A stretch of DNA of 64,000 nucleotides from a virus (IMGVR_UViG_3300042539_001740), one strand, 5' to 3'. Shown: positions 5,405 to 63,252, counted from the stretch's first letter. The notes: a model not told the origin generated them from the sequence alone. A program made the numbers and translations.

Positions 5405-5453
5405 GTTAAAGGTCAATATTTATTATTTATAATAACTAAAAATATTTAACCTT

Positions 5454-6059
5454 ATGTCATCAGATATTATTGTAGCGTTTATAACAGGGGTGATGGGACC
5501 TGTGACATTGTTATATGTTAAAAATCTATTAGATAAGAAAAAGAAAAAACCCGATATGTTACACGATGCCCTGAAAGTTGGGGAATTGGTAATGTCAAAA
5601 ATCGAACACATCAGGGAAGAAATCAATTGTGATAGAGTTTGGGTTACTCAGTTCCACAATGGTGGTAATTTTTATCCTACGGGCAAATCTATGGCCAAAT
5701 TCAGTATGATTTATGAAGCTGTCGGTCCTAATGCTACCTCAAAACAAAATACCTTCAAAAACCTACCTGTAAACCTCTTCACAAAATCAATCAATCAGTT
5801 ATTCGAAAATGATGTTATTGAAATTGTTGATTTTAAGGATGAAACAATTGCAACTTATGGGTTGAAGTATATTGCCGAAGAAACGGCTTGTAAATCTCAA
5901 TATATATTTGCCATCAAAACAATTGATAACAAATTCATTGGTACACTAGGAATTGATTTTACCAAAAGAAAAACAAAATTGGATATGGAAACCATAAATC
6001 ACCTCGCAGTTCATGCAAGTTCTTTAGGTGGGGTGTTAATGAATCACCTGAAACAATAA
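5454..6059 (+). CDS. Single-TM + GAF-domain protein, probable T4 gpT-type holin
   Basis: N-terminal TM and poly-K, then a GAF-like domain (CDRVWVTQFHNG...FIGTLGIDF); same architecture as T4 holin T. Confidence 0.55.
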   Translation: MSSDIIVAFITGVMGPVTLLYVKNLLDKKKKKPDMLHDALKVGELVMSKIEHIREEINCDRVWVTQFHNGGNFYPTGKSMAKFSMIYEAVGPNATSKQNTFKNLPVNLFTKSINQLFENDVIEIVDFKDETIATYGLKYIAEETACKSQYIFAIKTIDNKFIGTLGIDFTKRKTKLDMETINHLAVHASSLGGVLMNHLKQ

Positions 6060-6063
6060 ATTT

Positions 6064-6708
6064 ATGGTAAAATTTTATCCACCAACAACAGATGCTAATT
6101 TAGATACAAGTAAATTCAAAAGATGGACTTATACCCCTTATAGAAATGGTGTTGATGTTTACGCCCCTTTTGATGGAAAGATTTATGGTGTTGATAAGAA
6201 GAAGGGACTAGTTAAAATTAAACACTTTTTTTCAAAAGACACTTATACTACTAAATTTTATGAATTAGGTGACATATATAAATCTAATGGGGATACTGTA
6301 AGAATGGGGGAAATTATAGGTAAAACAAGTTCAAGTCCTTTCAGTATGGAAATTGTAGATTCAGGTAATTTGGAACAATTGATAACACCATTCTTCACTG
6401 GTAGTGTAAATCTTAGAACAGAACCTAAACAAGAAAAAAATGTATCAAAAGAAAAGGAAATCCAAATTAAAGACAAAGAAACTTCAGATAAATTCGAAAA
6501 ACAAAAAGAAAAAAATAAGAAAGAAAAATATGTACCTGGTTTAAAAACTTATGAACCTGGTAAACTTTCTTTACTAGATGTTGGTTTAGTCCCCTTTCAT
6601 TTATTAGGAATGGCTGGTACTTATCTTCAAAATAGAATGAAAAGGAAAAAAGCAGAAAAAGAAAATTTAGAAGAGGAAGTGCAAAGAATTAAACAACTTA
6701 TAAAATAA
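6064..6708 (+). CDS. Degenerate M23 peptidase-domain protein with C-terminal LEEEVQRIKQLIK motif
   Basis: GVDVYAPFDG...VKIKH...GDTVRMGEIIG fits the M23 fold, but the HxxxD and HxH Zn ligands are replaced. Confidence 0.6.
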   Translation: MVKFYPPTTDANLDTSKFKRWTYTPYRNGVDVYAPFDGKIYGVDKKKGLVKIKHFFSKDTYTTKFYELGDIYKSNGDTVRMGEIIGKTSSSPFSMEIVDSGNLEQLITPFFTGSVNLRTEPKQEKNVSKEKEIQIKDKETSDKFEKQKEKNKKEKYVPGLKTYEPGKLSLLDVGLVPFHLLGMAGTYLQNRMKRKKAEKENLEEEVQRIKQLIK

Positions 6709-6745
6709 AAAAATCCCCATCTTAAAAAGTGGGGATTTATTTTTT
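6706..6745. terminator. Bidirectional terminator between convergent genes
   Basis: A-run, AAATCCCCAT/GTGGGGATTT stem, T-run. Confidence 0.75.
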
Positions 6746-60148: not shown

Positions 60149-62046
60149 TTTGATAGAGGTTTATTCATAATATAATCGTATAATTTTCTTTCGTCATTTT
60201 TGATGTTTTGAATCATACTTGGTCTAATGTGTCTATAGTTAAATAATGGTAGAGGTATTCTAACTCCCTTATACCCATTATTTCCTATTCTCCACCAAAA
60301 ATCATAATCCTCCCACCCTTTCATAGATTCATCATAACCTAACACATCGTCCCAAGCTTTTTTTCTGAACAAAGAACAACTTACAATAAAAGGCCCTCTT
60401 TTTAATCTACTCAATGACCATTCAGGTCTTTTTTCCATACCTTGTATAAAACCAATATGATTTGTATCACAATATATTGGACTCAAATTCTCATTCTTCT
60501 CAGCTTCATAAATTGCAAATAACAAATAGTTTTTATCAAATGTATCATCAACATCGTGTGGTAATATATAATATCCTTGTGAGGATTTAATAGCTGTATT
60601 TCTTGCTGCAGAAAGTCCTTTATTTCTTTCGTGATGTAAAACTTTAATATCACTATCTAAATTATTTAATATTTCCAAAGTTTTTGTATCACTCGACCCA
60701 TCATTAATAACGATAATTTCTTTATTTGAGTATGTTAAATCTTTAGCCGATTTTATTGCCTCAGGTAAATATTGACCATCGTTAAAACAAGGGATAATGA
60801 TACTAACTAGAGGACCTAAATTTTTAACGTATTTTTCTGTTAAAAATTTCAAACTCTTTTGATAGTTCTCTTGTTTAAATTGTTCAGAAACTTGTTGGGT
60901 TATATTGTTTTTATATTTTTCAATTATGTTATCTATGTTATTCAAATTACGAAACCAGTTCAAGTCAAATAAAAAACTATCATTACCAATCGACTCAAAA
61001 TTTTCAATTGGTGTTGTTGGGTAACACTTTTGAATAAAATCAGTTAATTCATCATCGAAAAGTTGAATTACATCAAAATCAATTTCTTTTATTTTATACA
61101 ACTGATTTATTTGTGTTGGTTGAAGACCATTTGGTGTGTTAATTTGCCATTTACCATCACCTAATTTATAACCGAAAGGTTCATTTATGGAACTTAAATT
61201 TATTCCTTCTCTTTTAGCTAAACTTGTTATTCTATTTCCCAAATTTGAACATATGTACAAATGATGACCTTTGTTTTTAAGTGACTTCACAAATTCGAAA
61301 ATGAATTTTTCTTTATTTGATTCCCCATTAAAATTAGTGGTTGAAATTAATATTTTTAATTTCTCGTTGGGGTGTATTTTTCTATTTAAGAATACAGGTA
61401 AATTATCTTCATATTTTGATGTGAATTTAATTCTGTTTTCCTCCCATTTAGAATTAGTCATCCCAATCGACTTATGATTAATTCTAATCTCTGTTGTTAC
61501 ACCTATTTTAACACCCGACAAGTAGTTATCAAAACAAAAAGATACATCATAAAAATGAAATCCTTGAAACTCTTCATTGAATGTTTTTTTTATTCTATTT
61601 TTGTCAATAGCAAAAAACAATCCATCAACAACAACAACTTCCTCTAAATTACTCCCCAAATCTTGTGAATATGATGATAACCAAGTTTTACCATTATGTG
61701 TATGTGCTACTTTTCCATACATTTTTTTCATATCTTCCCACCATCTACCCGATGTGGACAAAAACTTTGTACCCGCAACACCAACTACTCCATAATCTAA
61801 ATTTCTATCAAAAATTTTGAGTAGTTTGTTACCCCATTGATTAGTTTCAATAGTCAAATCATCATGACAGAAAACAACTATACTATTTGAGGCTTGTGAT
61901 AAACCTCTATTATATGCCGAGGTTAGAGATTCACCATTATTAACGATTTCAATAACTTCCAACTTGTTATGTAAACCAGAAGTTTTAATTAAATGTTTTT
62001 TATGTTCTTCATTTGAAGTTCTTGTACAATATATTATAGTAATCAT
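60145..62046 (-). CDS. Multi-domain glycosyltransferase (GT2-like + GT4 N-terminal-like + GT2)
   Basis: VFCHDD, DGLF, FHFYD; C-terminal VSIIIPCFND, INDGS, HDVDD, WEDYDFW. Confidence 0.85.
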   Translation of the reverse strand: MITIIYCTRTSNEEHKKHLIKTSGLHNKLEVIEIVNNGESLTSAYNRGLSQASNSIVVFCHDDLTIETNQWGNKLLKIFDRNLDYGVVGVAGTKFLSTSGRWWEDMKKMYGKVAHTHNGKTWLSSYSQDLGSNLEEVVVVDGLFFAIDKNRIKKTFNEEFQGFHFYDVSFCFDNYLSGVKIGVTTEIRINHKSIGMTNSKWEENRIKFTSKYEDNLPVFLNRKIHPNEKLKILISTTNFNGESNKEKFIFEFVKSLKNKGHHLYICSNLGNRITSLAKREGINLSSINEPFGYKLGDGKWQINTPNGLQPTQINQLYKIKEIDFDVIQLFDDELTDFIQKCYPTTPIENFESIGNDSFLFDLNWFRNLNNIDNIIEKYKNNITQQVSEQFKQENYQKSLKFLTEKYVKNLGPLVSIIIPCFNDGQYLPEAIKSAKDLTYSNKEIIVINDGSSDTKTLEILNNLDSDIKVLHHERNKGLSAARNTAIKSSQGYYILPHDVDDTFDKNYLLFAIYEAEKNENLSPIYCDTNHIGFIQGMEKRPEWSLSRLKRGPFIVSCSLFRKKAWDDVLGYDESMKGWEDYDFWWRIGNNGYKGVRIPLPLFNYRHIRPSMIQNIKNDERKLYDYIMNKPLSK

Positions 62047-62345
62047 ATTCCTGTTGAGCCAAATCCGTTATCACCTCTGTCTTTTTGACCTAAATCTTTC
62101 TTTAGTTCCAAATCAACATATTTTCCGTTTATTACTGGACATAAAACTGCTTGTGCAATTTTCATTCCTTTTTTTATTGTTACTTGGTCTGAATTCGTAT
62201 TAAAAATTATAACTTTTACTTCACCCAAATAACCGCAATTATGTATCAAATGACTATTACAAAAGAAGTTATGATTATTACTTACTGTTATATCATAAGT
62301 TTGTTTTTTTTCTGATGTTATTTTTTTAATCTTCGTTGTTTTCAT
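62043..62345 (-). CDS. dut: Split intein C-fragment (36 aa, 62345-62238) fused to dUTPase C-extein
   Basis: ...YDITVSNNHNFFCNSHLIHN|CGYLGEVKV...IAQAV...RGDNGFGSTG (dUTPase motifs 3-5). Confidence 0.93.
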   Translation of the reverse strand: MKTTKIKKITSEKKQTYDITVSNNHNFFCNSHLIHNCGYLGEVKVIIFNTNSDQVTIKKGMKIAQAVLCPVINGKYVDLELKKDLGQKDRGDNGFGSTGI

Positions 62346-63219
62346 ATATAAAATTTTTTAGTTCTTCAACTGAGTAAAACAATTTATAGTTTGGGTATTC
62401 TTTTAATGCAAATTGTTGTTTTACTAATACTTCCTCAGTTTCCCACCCCTTTAGTTCAATTAAAAAGATTTTACCATTGGCTAATTCAATGTAAAAATCA
62501 GGAACATAGTTTCTGTGTAGTCCATTATAAAAATATCTTATTCGAATACCATGTTTGTTCGTCCATCTTTTTATAAAATTAACTGAGTCAAAAAAAATCA
62601 TAGTTTCCAATTCATATGAGGATGAATATAAAAAGGTTTCATTTTCCTTTGATTCATATTTTCCTGTTTTATATTTGTTACTTGTATTACTTAATTTACC
62701 TGTACTATATAATTCAGAAATAATTTTTGACATATTTTCCCTAAACTCTTTTCCTTTTTCACATCTACCATCACCCAACACTTTTACGATTGATTTGATT
62801 GTTTTTTGTCTATACTCCTCATTTTCCCATCTTTCTTTTGATGTTTTTGATATTTTTTTTATTCTATCTTCAGATTTGACCCACTCTTTAAATTTTTCAC
62901 TTTTATGCCAATTGGTAAAACCTGAATAGATTTCGGGTGTTTCTTTATGTCTCTTTTTTATAATATTAGACATTTTATTTTTGAATTCAGATTTATTATG
63001 GGATACTTGTCTAGATTTTGTCATTTTTTGTTTATATTCAGTATCACTCCATTTAGTTTTTTGTTTCTCTGAAAATATTGTTGCATATTCTTTTGATTTA
63101 ACTAAATTACCTGGATATAACTCTTTGTATTCTTTTGAGGTTAATTTATGTTCAAATTTTAAATGTTCAACAATTGAATATTGTTTTTCAATCCCACAAA
63201 TTTTACATTTTACTGACAT
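62326..63219 (-). mobile_element. Free-standing homing endonuclease (C2H2-like Zn finger + repeats + TnsA-like PD-(D/E)xK domain) between the intein halves
   Basis: CKIC..HLKFEH; KWSDTEYKQKM and RWENEEYRQKT repeats; YVPDFYIELANGKIFLIELKG. Confidence 0.82.
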
Positions 63220-63252
63220 ACTTATTATCTTTATTGATAAATAGTATCTTGG

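What the first reader, a model, noticed from the sequence alone, without database searches (positions are those of the whole stretch)
5417..63243. Strand-following TATTTAT motif before late genes plus a phage sigma: an inverted T4 late promoter
Seen: TATTTAT lies a short distance upstream (mostly ~5-35 nt, up to ~50) of plus-strand starts at 5417/5424, 8727, 10968, 14616, 15413, 19352, 21137, 23152, 24644, 25699/25764, 29337 and 30038. It appears as ATAAATA (the same motif on the minus strand) before minus-strand genes at about 6975, 8699/8705 (tmRNA), 33324, 35478, 39605 and 63237. It flips with gene orientation and is mostly absent before the early genes at 1-5 kb. Established: T4 gp55 recognises TATAAATA on the coding strand, and this motif is essentially its reverse complement. 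Inference: the gp55-like sigma at 39572-40324 recognises TATTTAT as a single -10-type late promoter.
Basis: partly seen in the sequence, partly recalled or inferred. Interest (0 to 1): 0.7.

Follow-up and report, generated by a model that had tools for sequence, protein, structure and literature searches.

The report
Phage late promoter box TATTTAT
A large uncultured lake phage marks its particle-building genes with one short DNA box, TATTTAT, that behaves as a phage-specific promoter. It is most likely read by the phage's own distant relative of the T4 late sigma factor, and a cultured Microcystis phage with the same box and sigma makes this testable at the bench.

Summary
The whole-window count equals chance (49 v 49.7), but in upstream intergenic DNA of the 194-kb genome TATTTAT is the commonest 7-mer: 48 sense copies v 6.0±2.5 in shuffles, 12 antisense. 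Inside genes it is the most avoided of 21 same-composition words. It is invariant at orthologous spacers in 160 related loci. No -35 element accompanies it. Spacing to the ATG is bimodal (4-6 nt or 12-16 nt).

The protein at 39572-40324 is a sigma-family factor. Its N-terminal domain resembles T4 gp55, and it has a probable sigma-4-like domain that gp55 lacks. The genome also encodes a second, primary-type sigma outside the window.

New here: the cultured Microcystis phage Mel-JY01 has the first sigma family, no second sigma, and the same box before its structural genes with long Shine-Dalgarno leaders.

"Inverted T4 promoter" is a misreading. T4's box is nearly palindromic, so this is the same-sense box with its two middle letters changed (TAT-TT-ATA v TAT-AA-ATA). 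No T4-type clamp was found.

The scan found this box before on other DNA (155 notes, at least 78 genomes). I found no paper describing it. No RNA data exist.

The parts
5417..5430 (+). Two tandem TATTTAT boxes after a terminator-like hairpin, 30 and 23 nt before the ATG of gene 5454-6059
8699..8711 (-). Two overlapping boxes 26 and 32 nt before the mature 5' end of the phage tmRNA (8291-8672)
8727..8733 (+). Box 17 nt before gene 8751-10145, divergent from the tmRNA boxes
10968..10974 (+). Box 13 nt before gene 10988-11659; part of the palindrome TATTTATAAATA
14616..14622 (+). Box 5 nt before an in-frame ATG at 14628 (short-spacing class). This argues that the gene starts at 14628, not at the TTG at 14589
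15413..15419 (+). Box 31 nt before gene 15451-16698
19352..19358 (+). Box directly after a terminator hairpin, 14 nt before the large terminase gene (19373-21136). The box is invariant in relatives while the flanks and the hairpin sequence change
21137..21143 (+). Box starting one base after the terminase stop codon, 12 nt before a 54-aa ORF that precedes the portal gene (21364-23151)
23152..23158 (+). Box right after the portal stop codon, 14 nt before gene 23173-23889
24644..24650 (+). Box 16 nt before the prohead protease gene (24667-25389). A host-type TATATTTG box lies just upstream at 24631-24638
25699..25770 (+). Two boxes (25699 and 25764) after a terminator, ahead of gene 25796-27346 and the major head protein gene (27383-29251)
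29337..29343 (+). Box 5 nt before the ATG of an endonuclease VII-like gene (29349-30029), short-spacing class, after a terminator
30038..30044 (+). Box 14 nt before gene 30059-30541
33324..33330 (-). Box 11 nt before gene 33127-33312
35478..35484 (-). Box right after a stop codon, 13 nt before gene 33998-35464
39605..39611 (-). Box inside the 3' end of the sigma gene, 44 nt before gene 39186-39560. In nearly all relatives the box for this gene lies in the spacer 4-6 nt before the ATG; here that copy is missing
63237..63243 (-). Box 17 nt before gene 62326-63219, which heads the long minus-strand block
6975..6981 (-). Weak candidate: box 50 nt before a doubtful 54-aa ORF (6760-6924), with G instead of A at -1
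39572..40324 (-). Candidate late sigma factor (250 aa, P0001): a gp55-like sigma-2 domain (about residues 26-148) plus a probable sigma-4-like C-terminal domain (about 159-250)
1983..1990 (+). Contrast class: host-type (Bacteroidota) -7 box TATATTTG before an early gene. Others lie at 4050-4057 (+), 24105-24112 (+) and 32582-32589 (-)

Best explanation
TATTTAT, more fully (a/g)-A-TATTTAT-(A/T/C, almost never G), is the late promoter of this phage. It is a single -10-like element with no -35 partner. It lies directly after terminators or stop codons and just ahead of the structural, packaging and other late genes.

It is most likely read by host core RNA polymerase carrying the phage sigma encoded at 39572-40324. 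That sigma's N-terminal domain is a distant homolog of T4 gp55 and of sigma-70 region 2.

Inferred mechanism: as in T4, non-template bases of the melted box are flipped into pockets of the sigma-2 domain. In the T4 register the two adenines that enter deep pockets (-12 and -8) are kept, and only -10 and -9 differ (TT for AA).

Transcription should begin about 5-7 nt after the box. That would give either leaderless mRNAs (box 4-6 nt from the ATG) or leaders of about 7-11 nt (box 12-16 nt from the ATG), which suits a host that does not use Shine-Dalgarno sequences.

Early genes use host-type TTTG/TAnnTTTG promoters instead.

Shown: the enrichment, strand bias, conservation, avoidance inside genes, the sigma fold, and co-occurrence with the sigma across two phage lineages. 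Inferred: the pairing of this sigma with this box, the start sites, and the timing.
For: 1. Position and strand. 48 sense v 6.0+-2.45 expected and 12 antisense in upstream intergenic DNA; it is the top 7-mer.

2. Anatomy. In 450 non-identical sites, A at -1 occurs in 339, G after the box in only 15, and no position from -45 to -15 exceeds about 0.18 bits. Spacing peaks at 4-6 nt and 12-16 nt, with a trough at 7-10 nt.

3. Conservation.
- 263 sense v 43 antisense in 80 terminase-centred loci, and 259 v 100 in 80 sigma-centred loci.
- Upstream of the terminase gene the box is invariant while the hairpin and flanks change.
- The box before the gene after sigma has moved in this genome but is retained.

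4. Avoidance inside genes. Sense 33 v 75.8+-8.4 and antisense 36 v 61.3+-7.9 against codon shuffles. It is the most depleted of all 21 same-composition words on both strands.

5. Genes served: terminase, portal, prohead protease, the major head operon and an endonuclease VII-like gene.

6. The sigma.
- PDB sequence search returns only gp55.
- The family profile hits SigA region 2 at E 0.003.
- phrog_234 'late sigma' scores E 5e-4 in the genome search.
- The AF2 model has pLDDT 89.7.
- Nearly all Foldseek rows are sigma factors.
- hhalign to T4 gp55 gives E 9.6e-5.
- gp55 pocket residues R57, F86 and Y97 are identical and L54 is conservatively replaced by I. H95, which contacts A-9 in T4 (PMC7892883), is changed.

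7. Discrimination between the two sigmas. The cultured Microcystis phage Mel-JY01 (complete, 190 kb) has a member of this sigma family (profile E 3.9e-29). It has no Sigma70_r2 hit at E<=1, so no primary-type sigma. There TATTTAT is again the top upstream 7-mer: 24 sense, 5 antisense v 6.65+-2.62. It lies before structural genes, about 34 nt upstream of starts led by GGAG.

8. Controls. The same pipeline recovers TATAAATA in T4. It finds no TATTTAT bias in a 484-kb phage with a 22.5%-identical homolog.
Against: - No transcription start site, timing or binding data exist. The only run found is kept as contigs and was uninformative.
- This genome and all its near-complete relatives also encode a primary-type sigma with intact regions 2 and 4. 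Within this clade co-occurrence cannot separate the two.
- All sequence-level matches of the window sigma to known sigmas are weak: below Pfam's cut-off, and hhalign probability only 58%.
- The sigma has a probable sigma-4-like domain, yet no -35 element is seen.
- I found no promoter for the sigma gene itself. It sits in a long block headed only by a TATTTAT box, so its timing is unknown.
- In the strict T4 register (-13 to -6) the commonest spacing of 4 nt would put +1 two bases past the A of the ATG. The geometry must therefore differ slightly from T4.
- The gene models are my own longest-ORF calls, so some distances may be off.
- The related loci are not phylogenetically independent.
Confidence: 0.7

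Rival explanations
1. TATTTAT is a promoter, but it is read by another factor. Candidates are the phage's second, primary-type sigma (genome 11608-12408, outside the window) or the host primary sigma redirected by a phage protein. On this view the box is a variant of the host -7 box TAnnTTTG, with which it shares T1, A2 and T5.
For: - The second sigma is a clear sigma-70 family member: regions 1.2, 2 and 4 by Pfam (61 and 52.6 bits) and E 5e-44 to SigA.
- It is conserved in all near-complete relatives.
- It lies in an operon behind a host-type promoter, so it is probably made early.
- The box overlaps in form with the host -7 box, which spans -12 to -5 (PMC9723704).
Against: - Mel-JY01 uses the same box before its structural genes but has no such sigma. 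Its host is a cyanobacterium with different primary-sigma promoters, so neither a Bacteroidota-type sigma nor its phage copy is needed.
- No -33/-35 element accompanies the box, although this sigma keeps an intact region 4.
- A separate host-type class, TTTG-N-TAnnTTTG, exists: 6 sense, 0 antisense v 0.42 expected.
Confidence: 0.15
2. The word acts on RNA, not DNA. UAUUUAU would be a processing site for an endoribonuclease (as GGAG is for T4 RegB) or an AU-rich ribosome-loading element, producing or marking the 5' ends of late mRNAs.
For: - The word lies at a tight, fixed distance from start codons in a host without Shine-Dalgarno sequences.
- AU-rich elements can bind ribosomal protein S1.
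- A fixed 5' end could come from cleavage as well as from initiation.
Against: - Many boxes sit directly after intrinsic terminators, where little RNA would arrive from upstream.
- One box pair precedes a non-coding tmRNA.
- In Mel-JY01 the box lies about 34 nt from the ATG with a separate GGAG in between, so it is not tied to ribosome position.
- The word is also avoided on the antisense strand of genes. That fits a DNA signal better than a sense-RNA signal.
- A dedicated sigma co-occurs with it.
Confidence: 0.06
3. One reading: a truly inverted T4 late promoter. A gp55-like sigma would recognise T4's TATAAATA on the opposite strand, with flipped geometry.
For: TATTTATA is the exact reverse complement of TATAAATA. 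The sigma's N-terminal domain resembles gp55.
Against: - T4's box is nearly palindromic, so the 'reverse complement' differs from the forward box at only the two central positions.
- gp55 reads flipped non-template bases in a fixed polarity relative to the start site (PMC7892883). A box read on the other strand would drive transcription away from the genes.
- The box has gene-directed polarity in its flanks and its spacing.
- The forward T4 box is not used here: 7 sense copies v 2.3 expected, in part palindrome overlaps.
Confidence: 0.02
4. There is no signal: the word is a by-product of very AT-rich intergenic DNA.
For: The whole-window count equals expectation. Intergenic DNA is AT-rich.
Against: - Eight-fold excess over dinucleotide-matched shuffles of the same intergenic DNA, with a four-fold strand bias.
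- Invariance at orthologous sites.
- Selective avoidance inside genes compared with 20 same-composition words.
- A 484-kb control phage shows no bias.
Confidence: 0.01

Closest known systems
Bacteriophage T4 late transcription: TATAAATA promoters read by gp55, with co-activator gp33 and the gp45 sliding clamp (PMC2988020, PMC7892883)
   Same: - A phage-encoded, highly diverged sigma redirects host core RNA polymerase to late and structural genes.
- The promoter is a single 8-bp AT-rich -10-like element with no -35.
- The two boxes share 6 of 8 positions (TAT..ATA), including the adenines that T4 gp55 puts into deep pockets (-12 and -8).
   Different: - The central two bases are TT, not AA.
- The sigma is 250 aa with an added, probably sigma-4-like domain, where gp55 is 185 aa.
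- No gp45-type or beta-type clamp was detectable in this genome, in a 100%-complete relative or in Mel-JY01. gp33 was not identified.
- About a third of boxes sit 4-6 nt from the ATG, whereas the T4 boxes examined are at least 14 nt away.
- The hosts are (inferred) Bacteroidota and Cyanobacteria, not Enterobacteria.
Bacteroidota primary-sigma promoters: TTTG at -33 and TAnnTTTG at -12 to -5 (Bayley et al. 2000, as cited in PMC9723704)
   Same: An 8-bp box beginning with TA, with T at position 5, close to the start site. It is used in the same genome before early genes.
   Different: Positions 6-8 are ATa, not TTG. There is no -33 partner. The gene set is different (late). The same box is used by a phage of a cyanobacterium.
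Sigma-factor cascades of large phages, such as Bacillus phage SPO1 gp28 and gp33/gp34 (established knowledge; PMC13401047 appeared in the search but was not read)
   Same: A phage with more than one sigma factor of its own and several promoter classes that sort genes by time.
   Different: SPO1 sigmas read bipartite -35/-10 promoters. Here the late class has one element, and the cascade order is not established.

Membership tests
T4-type late transcription system (gp55 / gp33 / gp45 / TATAAATA) | Promoter is the octamer TATAAATA on the non-template strand | tested here: not met
   The enriched box is TATTTAT(A/T/C): 47 sense v 5.3 expected. TATAAATA has 7 sense copies v 2.3 expected, several being halves of TATTTATAAATA.
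T4-type late transcription system (gp55 / gp33 / gp45 / TATAAATA) | Single -10-like element, no -35 element | tested here: met
   In 450 non-identical sites no position from -45 to -15 exceeds about 0.18 bits.
T4-type late transcription system (gp55 / gp33 / gp45 / TATAAATA) | Sigma homologous to gp55 (sigma-2-like domain with base-flipping pockets) | tested here: met
   - phmmer against PDB returns only gp55, E 0.47.
- hhalign of the family profile v T4 gp55: E 9.6e-5, probability 58%.
The homology is weak but convergent. R57, F86 and Y97 equivalents are identical and L54 is I.
T4-type late transcription system (gp55 / gp33 / gp45 / TATAAATA) | gp55 architecture: about 185 aa, no sigma-4 domain (gp33 takes the flap site) | tested here: not met
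T4-type late transcription system (gp55 / gp33 / gp45 / TATAAATA) | Phage-encoded sliding clamp (gp45) as activator | tested here: inconclusive
   - PF09116: no hit in G000.
- PF02916: only a sub-threshold 13-bit hit in G000, none in G001-G003.
- PF00712 and the T4 gp45 protein: no hit in G000, G001 (100% complete) or Mel-JY01.
A very diverged clamp, or use of the host clamp, is not excluded.
T4-type late transcription system (gp55 / gp33 / gp45 / TATAAATA) | Co-activator gp33 | not tested
   I had no family accession for gp33 to search with. The conserved 124-aa neighbour of the sigma gene (39186-39560) has no Pfam or PHROG hit.
Sigma-70 family | Region 2 (core-binding and -10 recognition domain) | tested here: met
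   - Pfam Sigma70_r2 at E 0.024 and 14.9 bits, below the 24-bit cut-off.
- Family profile v SigA region 2: E 0.003-0.007.
Sigma-70 family | Region 4 (flap binding and -35 recognition helix-turn-helix) | tested here: inconclusive
Bacteroidota primary-sigma promoters (TTTG / TAnnTTTG) | -7 box TAnnTTTG with TTTG about 19-21 nt upstream | tested here: not met
   The late box has ATa at positions 6-8 and no upstream partner. True host-type boxes form a separate class before other genes.

The most novel reading that the evidence does not exclude
A very large, undescribed family of two-domain phage sigma factors (a gp55-like sigma-2 domain plus a sigma-4-like domain; at least 1,224 clusters at 50% identity) reads a one-element promoter, TATTTAT. 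It does so in phages of at least two bacterial phyla and without the T4 clamp and co-activator. In the branch that infects Bacteroidota it launches about a third of late genes as leaderless mRNAs, a class that makes up only about 5% of host mRNAs.
Probability: 0.5. Interest if true: 0.7.

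Novelty: new variant of a known kind. Interest (0 to 1): 0.6.

Why it matters
- Late-gene control by a phage sigma and a minimal promoter is textbook only for T4 and its close kin. This box and sigma appear to be the counterpart in an abundant, almost unstudied group of large freshwater phages. The sigma family has over a thousand 50% clusters in metagenomes.
- A known box lets late genes and true start codons be read directly from metagenomic sequence. 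One example is the re-called start at 14628.
- The box gives a portable, host-independent promoter and sigma pair for Bacteroidota, where genetic tools are scarce.
- The two-letter difference from T4, with the matching change at the residue that contacts A-9 in gp55, offers a natural experiment in how sigma-2 pockets set base specificity.
- Because Mel-JY01 is cultured, all of this can be tested with ordinary methods.

Tried and rejected
- Nucleotide and protein searches of the phage collection with window segments found no close cultured relative.
- RNA evidence: no RNA holder is listed. The one run offered (lake water, library labelled RNA-Seq, kept as contigs, 19% of words) gave only short fragments of many strains and no start or end signal when laid on 19001-29000. 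It is not evidence either way.
- The JGI label 'SprT family metalloprotease' on sigma homologs was rejected. There is no HExxH motif, and all profile and fold evidence points to sigma factors.
- Looking for cellular relatives of the second sigma, to compare DNA-contact residues, returned only a mis-binned phage contig.
- Distant sigma homologs (29-35% identity) lay on contigs too short to test or were absent from the viral contig collection.
- A third, E. coli-like promoter class (TTGA-N17-TAwwwT) suggested by earlier notes is only weakly supported here: 8 sense and 5 antisense v 1.1 expected.
- The 484-kb phage LR756508.1, with a 22.5%-identical homolog, shows no TATTTAT bias. The box-sigma link does not extend that far, or that protein has another specificity.
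- No promoter for the sigma gene itself was found in the 40-64 kb minus-strand block.
- The literature searches found no paper describing this box or Mel-JY01. This covers only the open-access library.

Full report
**What the window is.** The window is the reverse complement of positions 121525-185524 of a single 194,498-bp viral contig with 31% G+C. CheckV rates the contig about 66% complete. It encodes:
- a large terminase (19373-21136) and a portal protein (21364-23151);
- a prohead protease (24667-25389), a major head protein (27383-29251) and an endonuclease VII-like protein (29349-30029);
- two tRNA-Leu genes and a tmRNA (8291-8672, minus strand; Rfam 95 bits);
- a ClpB/ClpC-like ATPase;
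- a long minus-strand block rich in glycosyltransferases.

Relatives are abundant in IMG/VR, on contigs up to 294 kb. The one sequencing run that holds part of the window is from lake water.

**The observation.**
- Over the whole window the word is not enriched: 49 copies v 49.7 in shuffles.
- It is strongly mis-distributed. In the whole genome, 58 of 133 copies lie in the 4% of sequence that is intergenic, and 50 of those point toward the downstream gene.
- In 5,851 nt of upstream intergenic DNA there are 48 sense copies v 6.0+-2.45 in 1,000 dinucleotide-preserving shuffles (maximum 17), and 12 antisense copies v 7.1. It is the commonest 7-mer there, ahead of poly-A.
- In the window, the three intergenic antisense copies are all halves of the palindrome TATTTATAAATA.
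- The site at 14616 is followed after 5 nt by an in-frame ATG at 14628, which is probably the true start of that gene.
- The early block at 1-5 kb has no copy at promoter distance.

**Anatomy.** From 450 non-identical sites in this genome and 160 related loci:
- The element is (a/g)-A-TATTTAT-(A/T, rarely C or G). A at -1 occurs in 339 of 450 sites, and G after the box in only 15.
- An A-rich stretch follows the box.
- No position between -45 and -15 carries more than about 0.18 bits, so there is no -35 partner.
- The distance from the box to the ATG is bimodal: a peak at 4-6 nt (66, 30 and 14 sites), a trough at 7-10 nt, and a second peak at 12-16 nt.

Many boxes sit directly after an intrinsic terminator or a stop codon.

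**Evidence that it is a functional DNA signal.**
1. Conservation. The box is the top upstream 7-mer in 80 terminase-centred loci (263 sense, 43 antisense) and in 80 sigma-centred loci (259 v 100).
2. Footprinting. Upstream of the terminase gene, relatives keep a hairpin with compensatory changes, then an invariant TATTTAT, then the ATG, while the flanking bases drift. Both spacing classes occur for this one gene.
3. Turnover. The gene after the sigma gene has the box 4-6 nt before its ATG in nearly all relatives. In this window that copy is gone, and a box lies 44 nt upstream inside the sigma coding sequence.
4. Avoidance. Inside genes the word is depleted against codon shuffles: sense 33 v 75.8+-8.4 and antisense 36 v 61.3+-7.9. 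It is the most depleted of all 21 words of the same composition on both strands, with ratios 0.43 and 0.60 where the next lowest are 0.68 and 0.78.
5. Method controls. The same pipeline recovers TATAAATA in the T4 late region. It finds no TATTTAT bias in an unrelated 484-kb phage.

**A second promoter class and the host.**
- Several genes without the box carry TAnnTTTG: 11 sense copies v 4.2+-2.0, reached by none of 500 shuffles.
- Some have TTTG about 19-20 nt upstream of it. The bipartite form occurs 6 times sense and 0 antisense, v 0.42 expected.
- This is the primary-sigma promoter of Bacteroidota, whose -7 box spans -12 to -5 in Flavobacterium psychrophilum (PMC9723704).
- Shine-Dalgarno cores precede only 3% of genes, below the 11% of a control window.

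The host is therefore probably a member of the Bacteroidota. This is an inference.

**The sigma at 39572-40324.**
- Pfam gives only a sub-threshold Sigma70_r2 hit, and PHROGs gives a weak 'late sigma' hit.
- The family is huge: 1,224 clusters at 50% identity.
- A 55-member profile finds SigA region 2 as its best PDB hits (E 0.003-0.007), with gp55 lower in the list.
- The AlphaFold model is confident, with pLDDT 89.7. Nearly all Foldseek rows are sigma factors.
- hhalign of the profile against T4's own gp55 gives E 9.6e-5 and probability 58%.
- Full-length sigma factors align over residues 25-250.

So it is a sigma-family protein with a gp55-like sigma-2 domain and a probable sigma-4-like domain. 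It is not a gp55-type single-domain factor. The 'SprT' label on some homologs is spurious.

- It is a primary-type factor with regions 1.2, 2 and 4.
- It lies in an operon behind a host-type promoter.
- Both sigmas are conserved in all near-complete relatives, so this clade cannot separate them.

A more distant lineage can. Microcystis phage Mel-JY01 is cultured, with a complete 190,001-bp genome.
- It encodes a member of the window sigma's family: 27% identity and profile E 3.9e-29.
- It has no Sigma70_r2 match at E<=1.
- TATTTAT is again its top upstream 7-mer: 24 sense and 5 antisense v 6.65+-2.62, maximum 16 of 500 shuffles.
- The box lies before structural genes including the tail tube, mostly with A at -1.
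- There it sits about 34 nt from starts that are led by GGAG, and SD cores precede 27% of genes v 5% in a control window.

The box therefore follows the phage sigma family across host phyla. It does not need the primary-type sigma, and it is separable from the translation signal.

**Relation to T4.** In the gp55 open complex the non-template bases A-12, A-9 and A-8 of TATAAATA (-13 to -6) are flipped into pockets formed by Y97, by N13 and H95, and by T99 respectively (PMC7892883).
- T4's box is nearly palindromic. Its reverse complement TATTTATA is the same word with positions -10 and -9 changed from AA to TT. In the same register, A-12 and A-8 are kept.
- In the hhalign mapping, gp55 R57, F86 and Y97 are identical in the window sigma (R70, F98, Y109; the last two are nearly invariant in the family) and L54 becomes I67.
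- H95, the contact of A-9, becomes Y107, and T99 becomes G111.

This fits a same-sense variant box with altered central specificity. It is an inference from a weak alignment. Nothing supports an inverted promoter: the box has gene-directed polarity in its flanks and spacing, and a box read on the other strand would fire away from the genes.

No T4-type or beta-type clamp was detectable in this genome, in a 100%-complete relative or in Mel-JY01. gp33 was not identified.

**Start sites (inferred).**
- If the second base of the box (A) lies 10-12 nt before +1, the natural range for -10 elements, then spacings of 4-6 nt put +1 on the A of the ATG. That gives leaderless mRNAs.
- The second peak gives leaders of about 7-11 nt.
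- The trough corresponds to 2-5-nt leaders, which would serve neither mode of initiation.
- In the T4 late region examined, the boxes are at least 14 nt from the start, and only 5.5% of F. psychrophilum mRNAs are leaderless.

No RNA data were available to test this.

**Prior work.** Searches of the open-access library found no paper describing TATTTAT(A) as a phage promoter, nor any paper on Mel-JY01. The scan itself has noted this box many times on other DNA: 155 notes in at least 78 genomes, with several follow-ups reaching similar conclusions. Those are unchecked notes, not independent evidence.

**Verdict.**
- The promoter reading is very likely, about 0.9.
- The assignment to the window's sigma is likely, about 0.7-0.75 given that the box is a promoter.
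- The 'inverted T4 promoter' framing is wrong.
- It is a new variant of a known kind of system, and a cultured phage makes it directly testable.

Noticed in passing
G000 genome 11608-12408 (outside the window; L082:1081-1881, minus strand): A second phage sigma factor of primary type (Pfam regions 1.2, 2 and 4; E 5e-44 to SigA). It shares an operon with a DUF6576 protein, behind a terminator and a host-type TATCTTTG box, and is conserved in all near-complete relatives. Its promoter class is unknown.
   Followed up: partly
window 8291-8672 (minus strand): A phage-borne tmRNA (Rfam 95 bits) that ARAGORN did not call. Two overlapping late-type boxes lie 26-32 nt before its mature 5' end, so it may be expressed late.
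   Followed up: partly
window 11672-13747 (minus strand): A 691-aa ClpB/ClpC-like double AAA+ ATPase encoded by the phage. It sits in a divergent spacer with an E. coli-like TTGATT-N17-TATAAT motif upstream of gene 13869-14306.
   Followed up: no
window 2165-3081 (plus strand): An early-block gene with a cREC_REC (cyclic-phosphate processing receiver) domain (E 5e-24), followed by a pyrimidine-dimer glycosylase-like gene.
   Followed up: no
window 24631-24650 (plus strand): The prohead protease gene has a host-type TATATTTG box immediately upstream of the late TATTTAT box, which suggests dual promoters.
   Followed up: no
window 39186-39560 (minus strand): A 124-aa protein with no family hit always follows the sigma gene in the lake-phage clade. 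There it has a box 4-6 nt before its ATG and begins M-(G/P/A)-R-P. The gene after the sigma in Mel-JY01 looks unrelated. It could be a sigma partner.
   Followed up: partly
window 40324-63219 (minus strand): A block of about 23 kb with almost no intergenic gaps, rich in glycosyltransferases (GT2, GT1). It has a single TATTTAT box at its head and no recognisable internal promoter, and the sigma gene is its second-to-last gene.
   Followed up: partly
window 10968-10979, 25699-25710, 33319-33330: The 12-bp palindrome TATTTATAAATA occurs three times in intergenic DNA. It holds the box on both strands, and so also holds T4's TATAAATA.
   Followed up: no
L175 (Mel-JY01 PP395634.1) 22183-22410: The cultured Microcystis phage carries a ribosomal protein S21 (rpsU) gene inside its head-gene module. 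Its module order resembles this window's.
   Followed up: no
   Followed up: no
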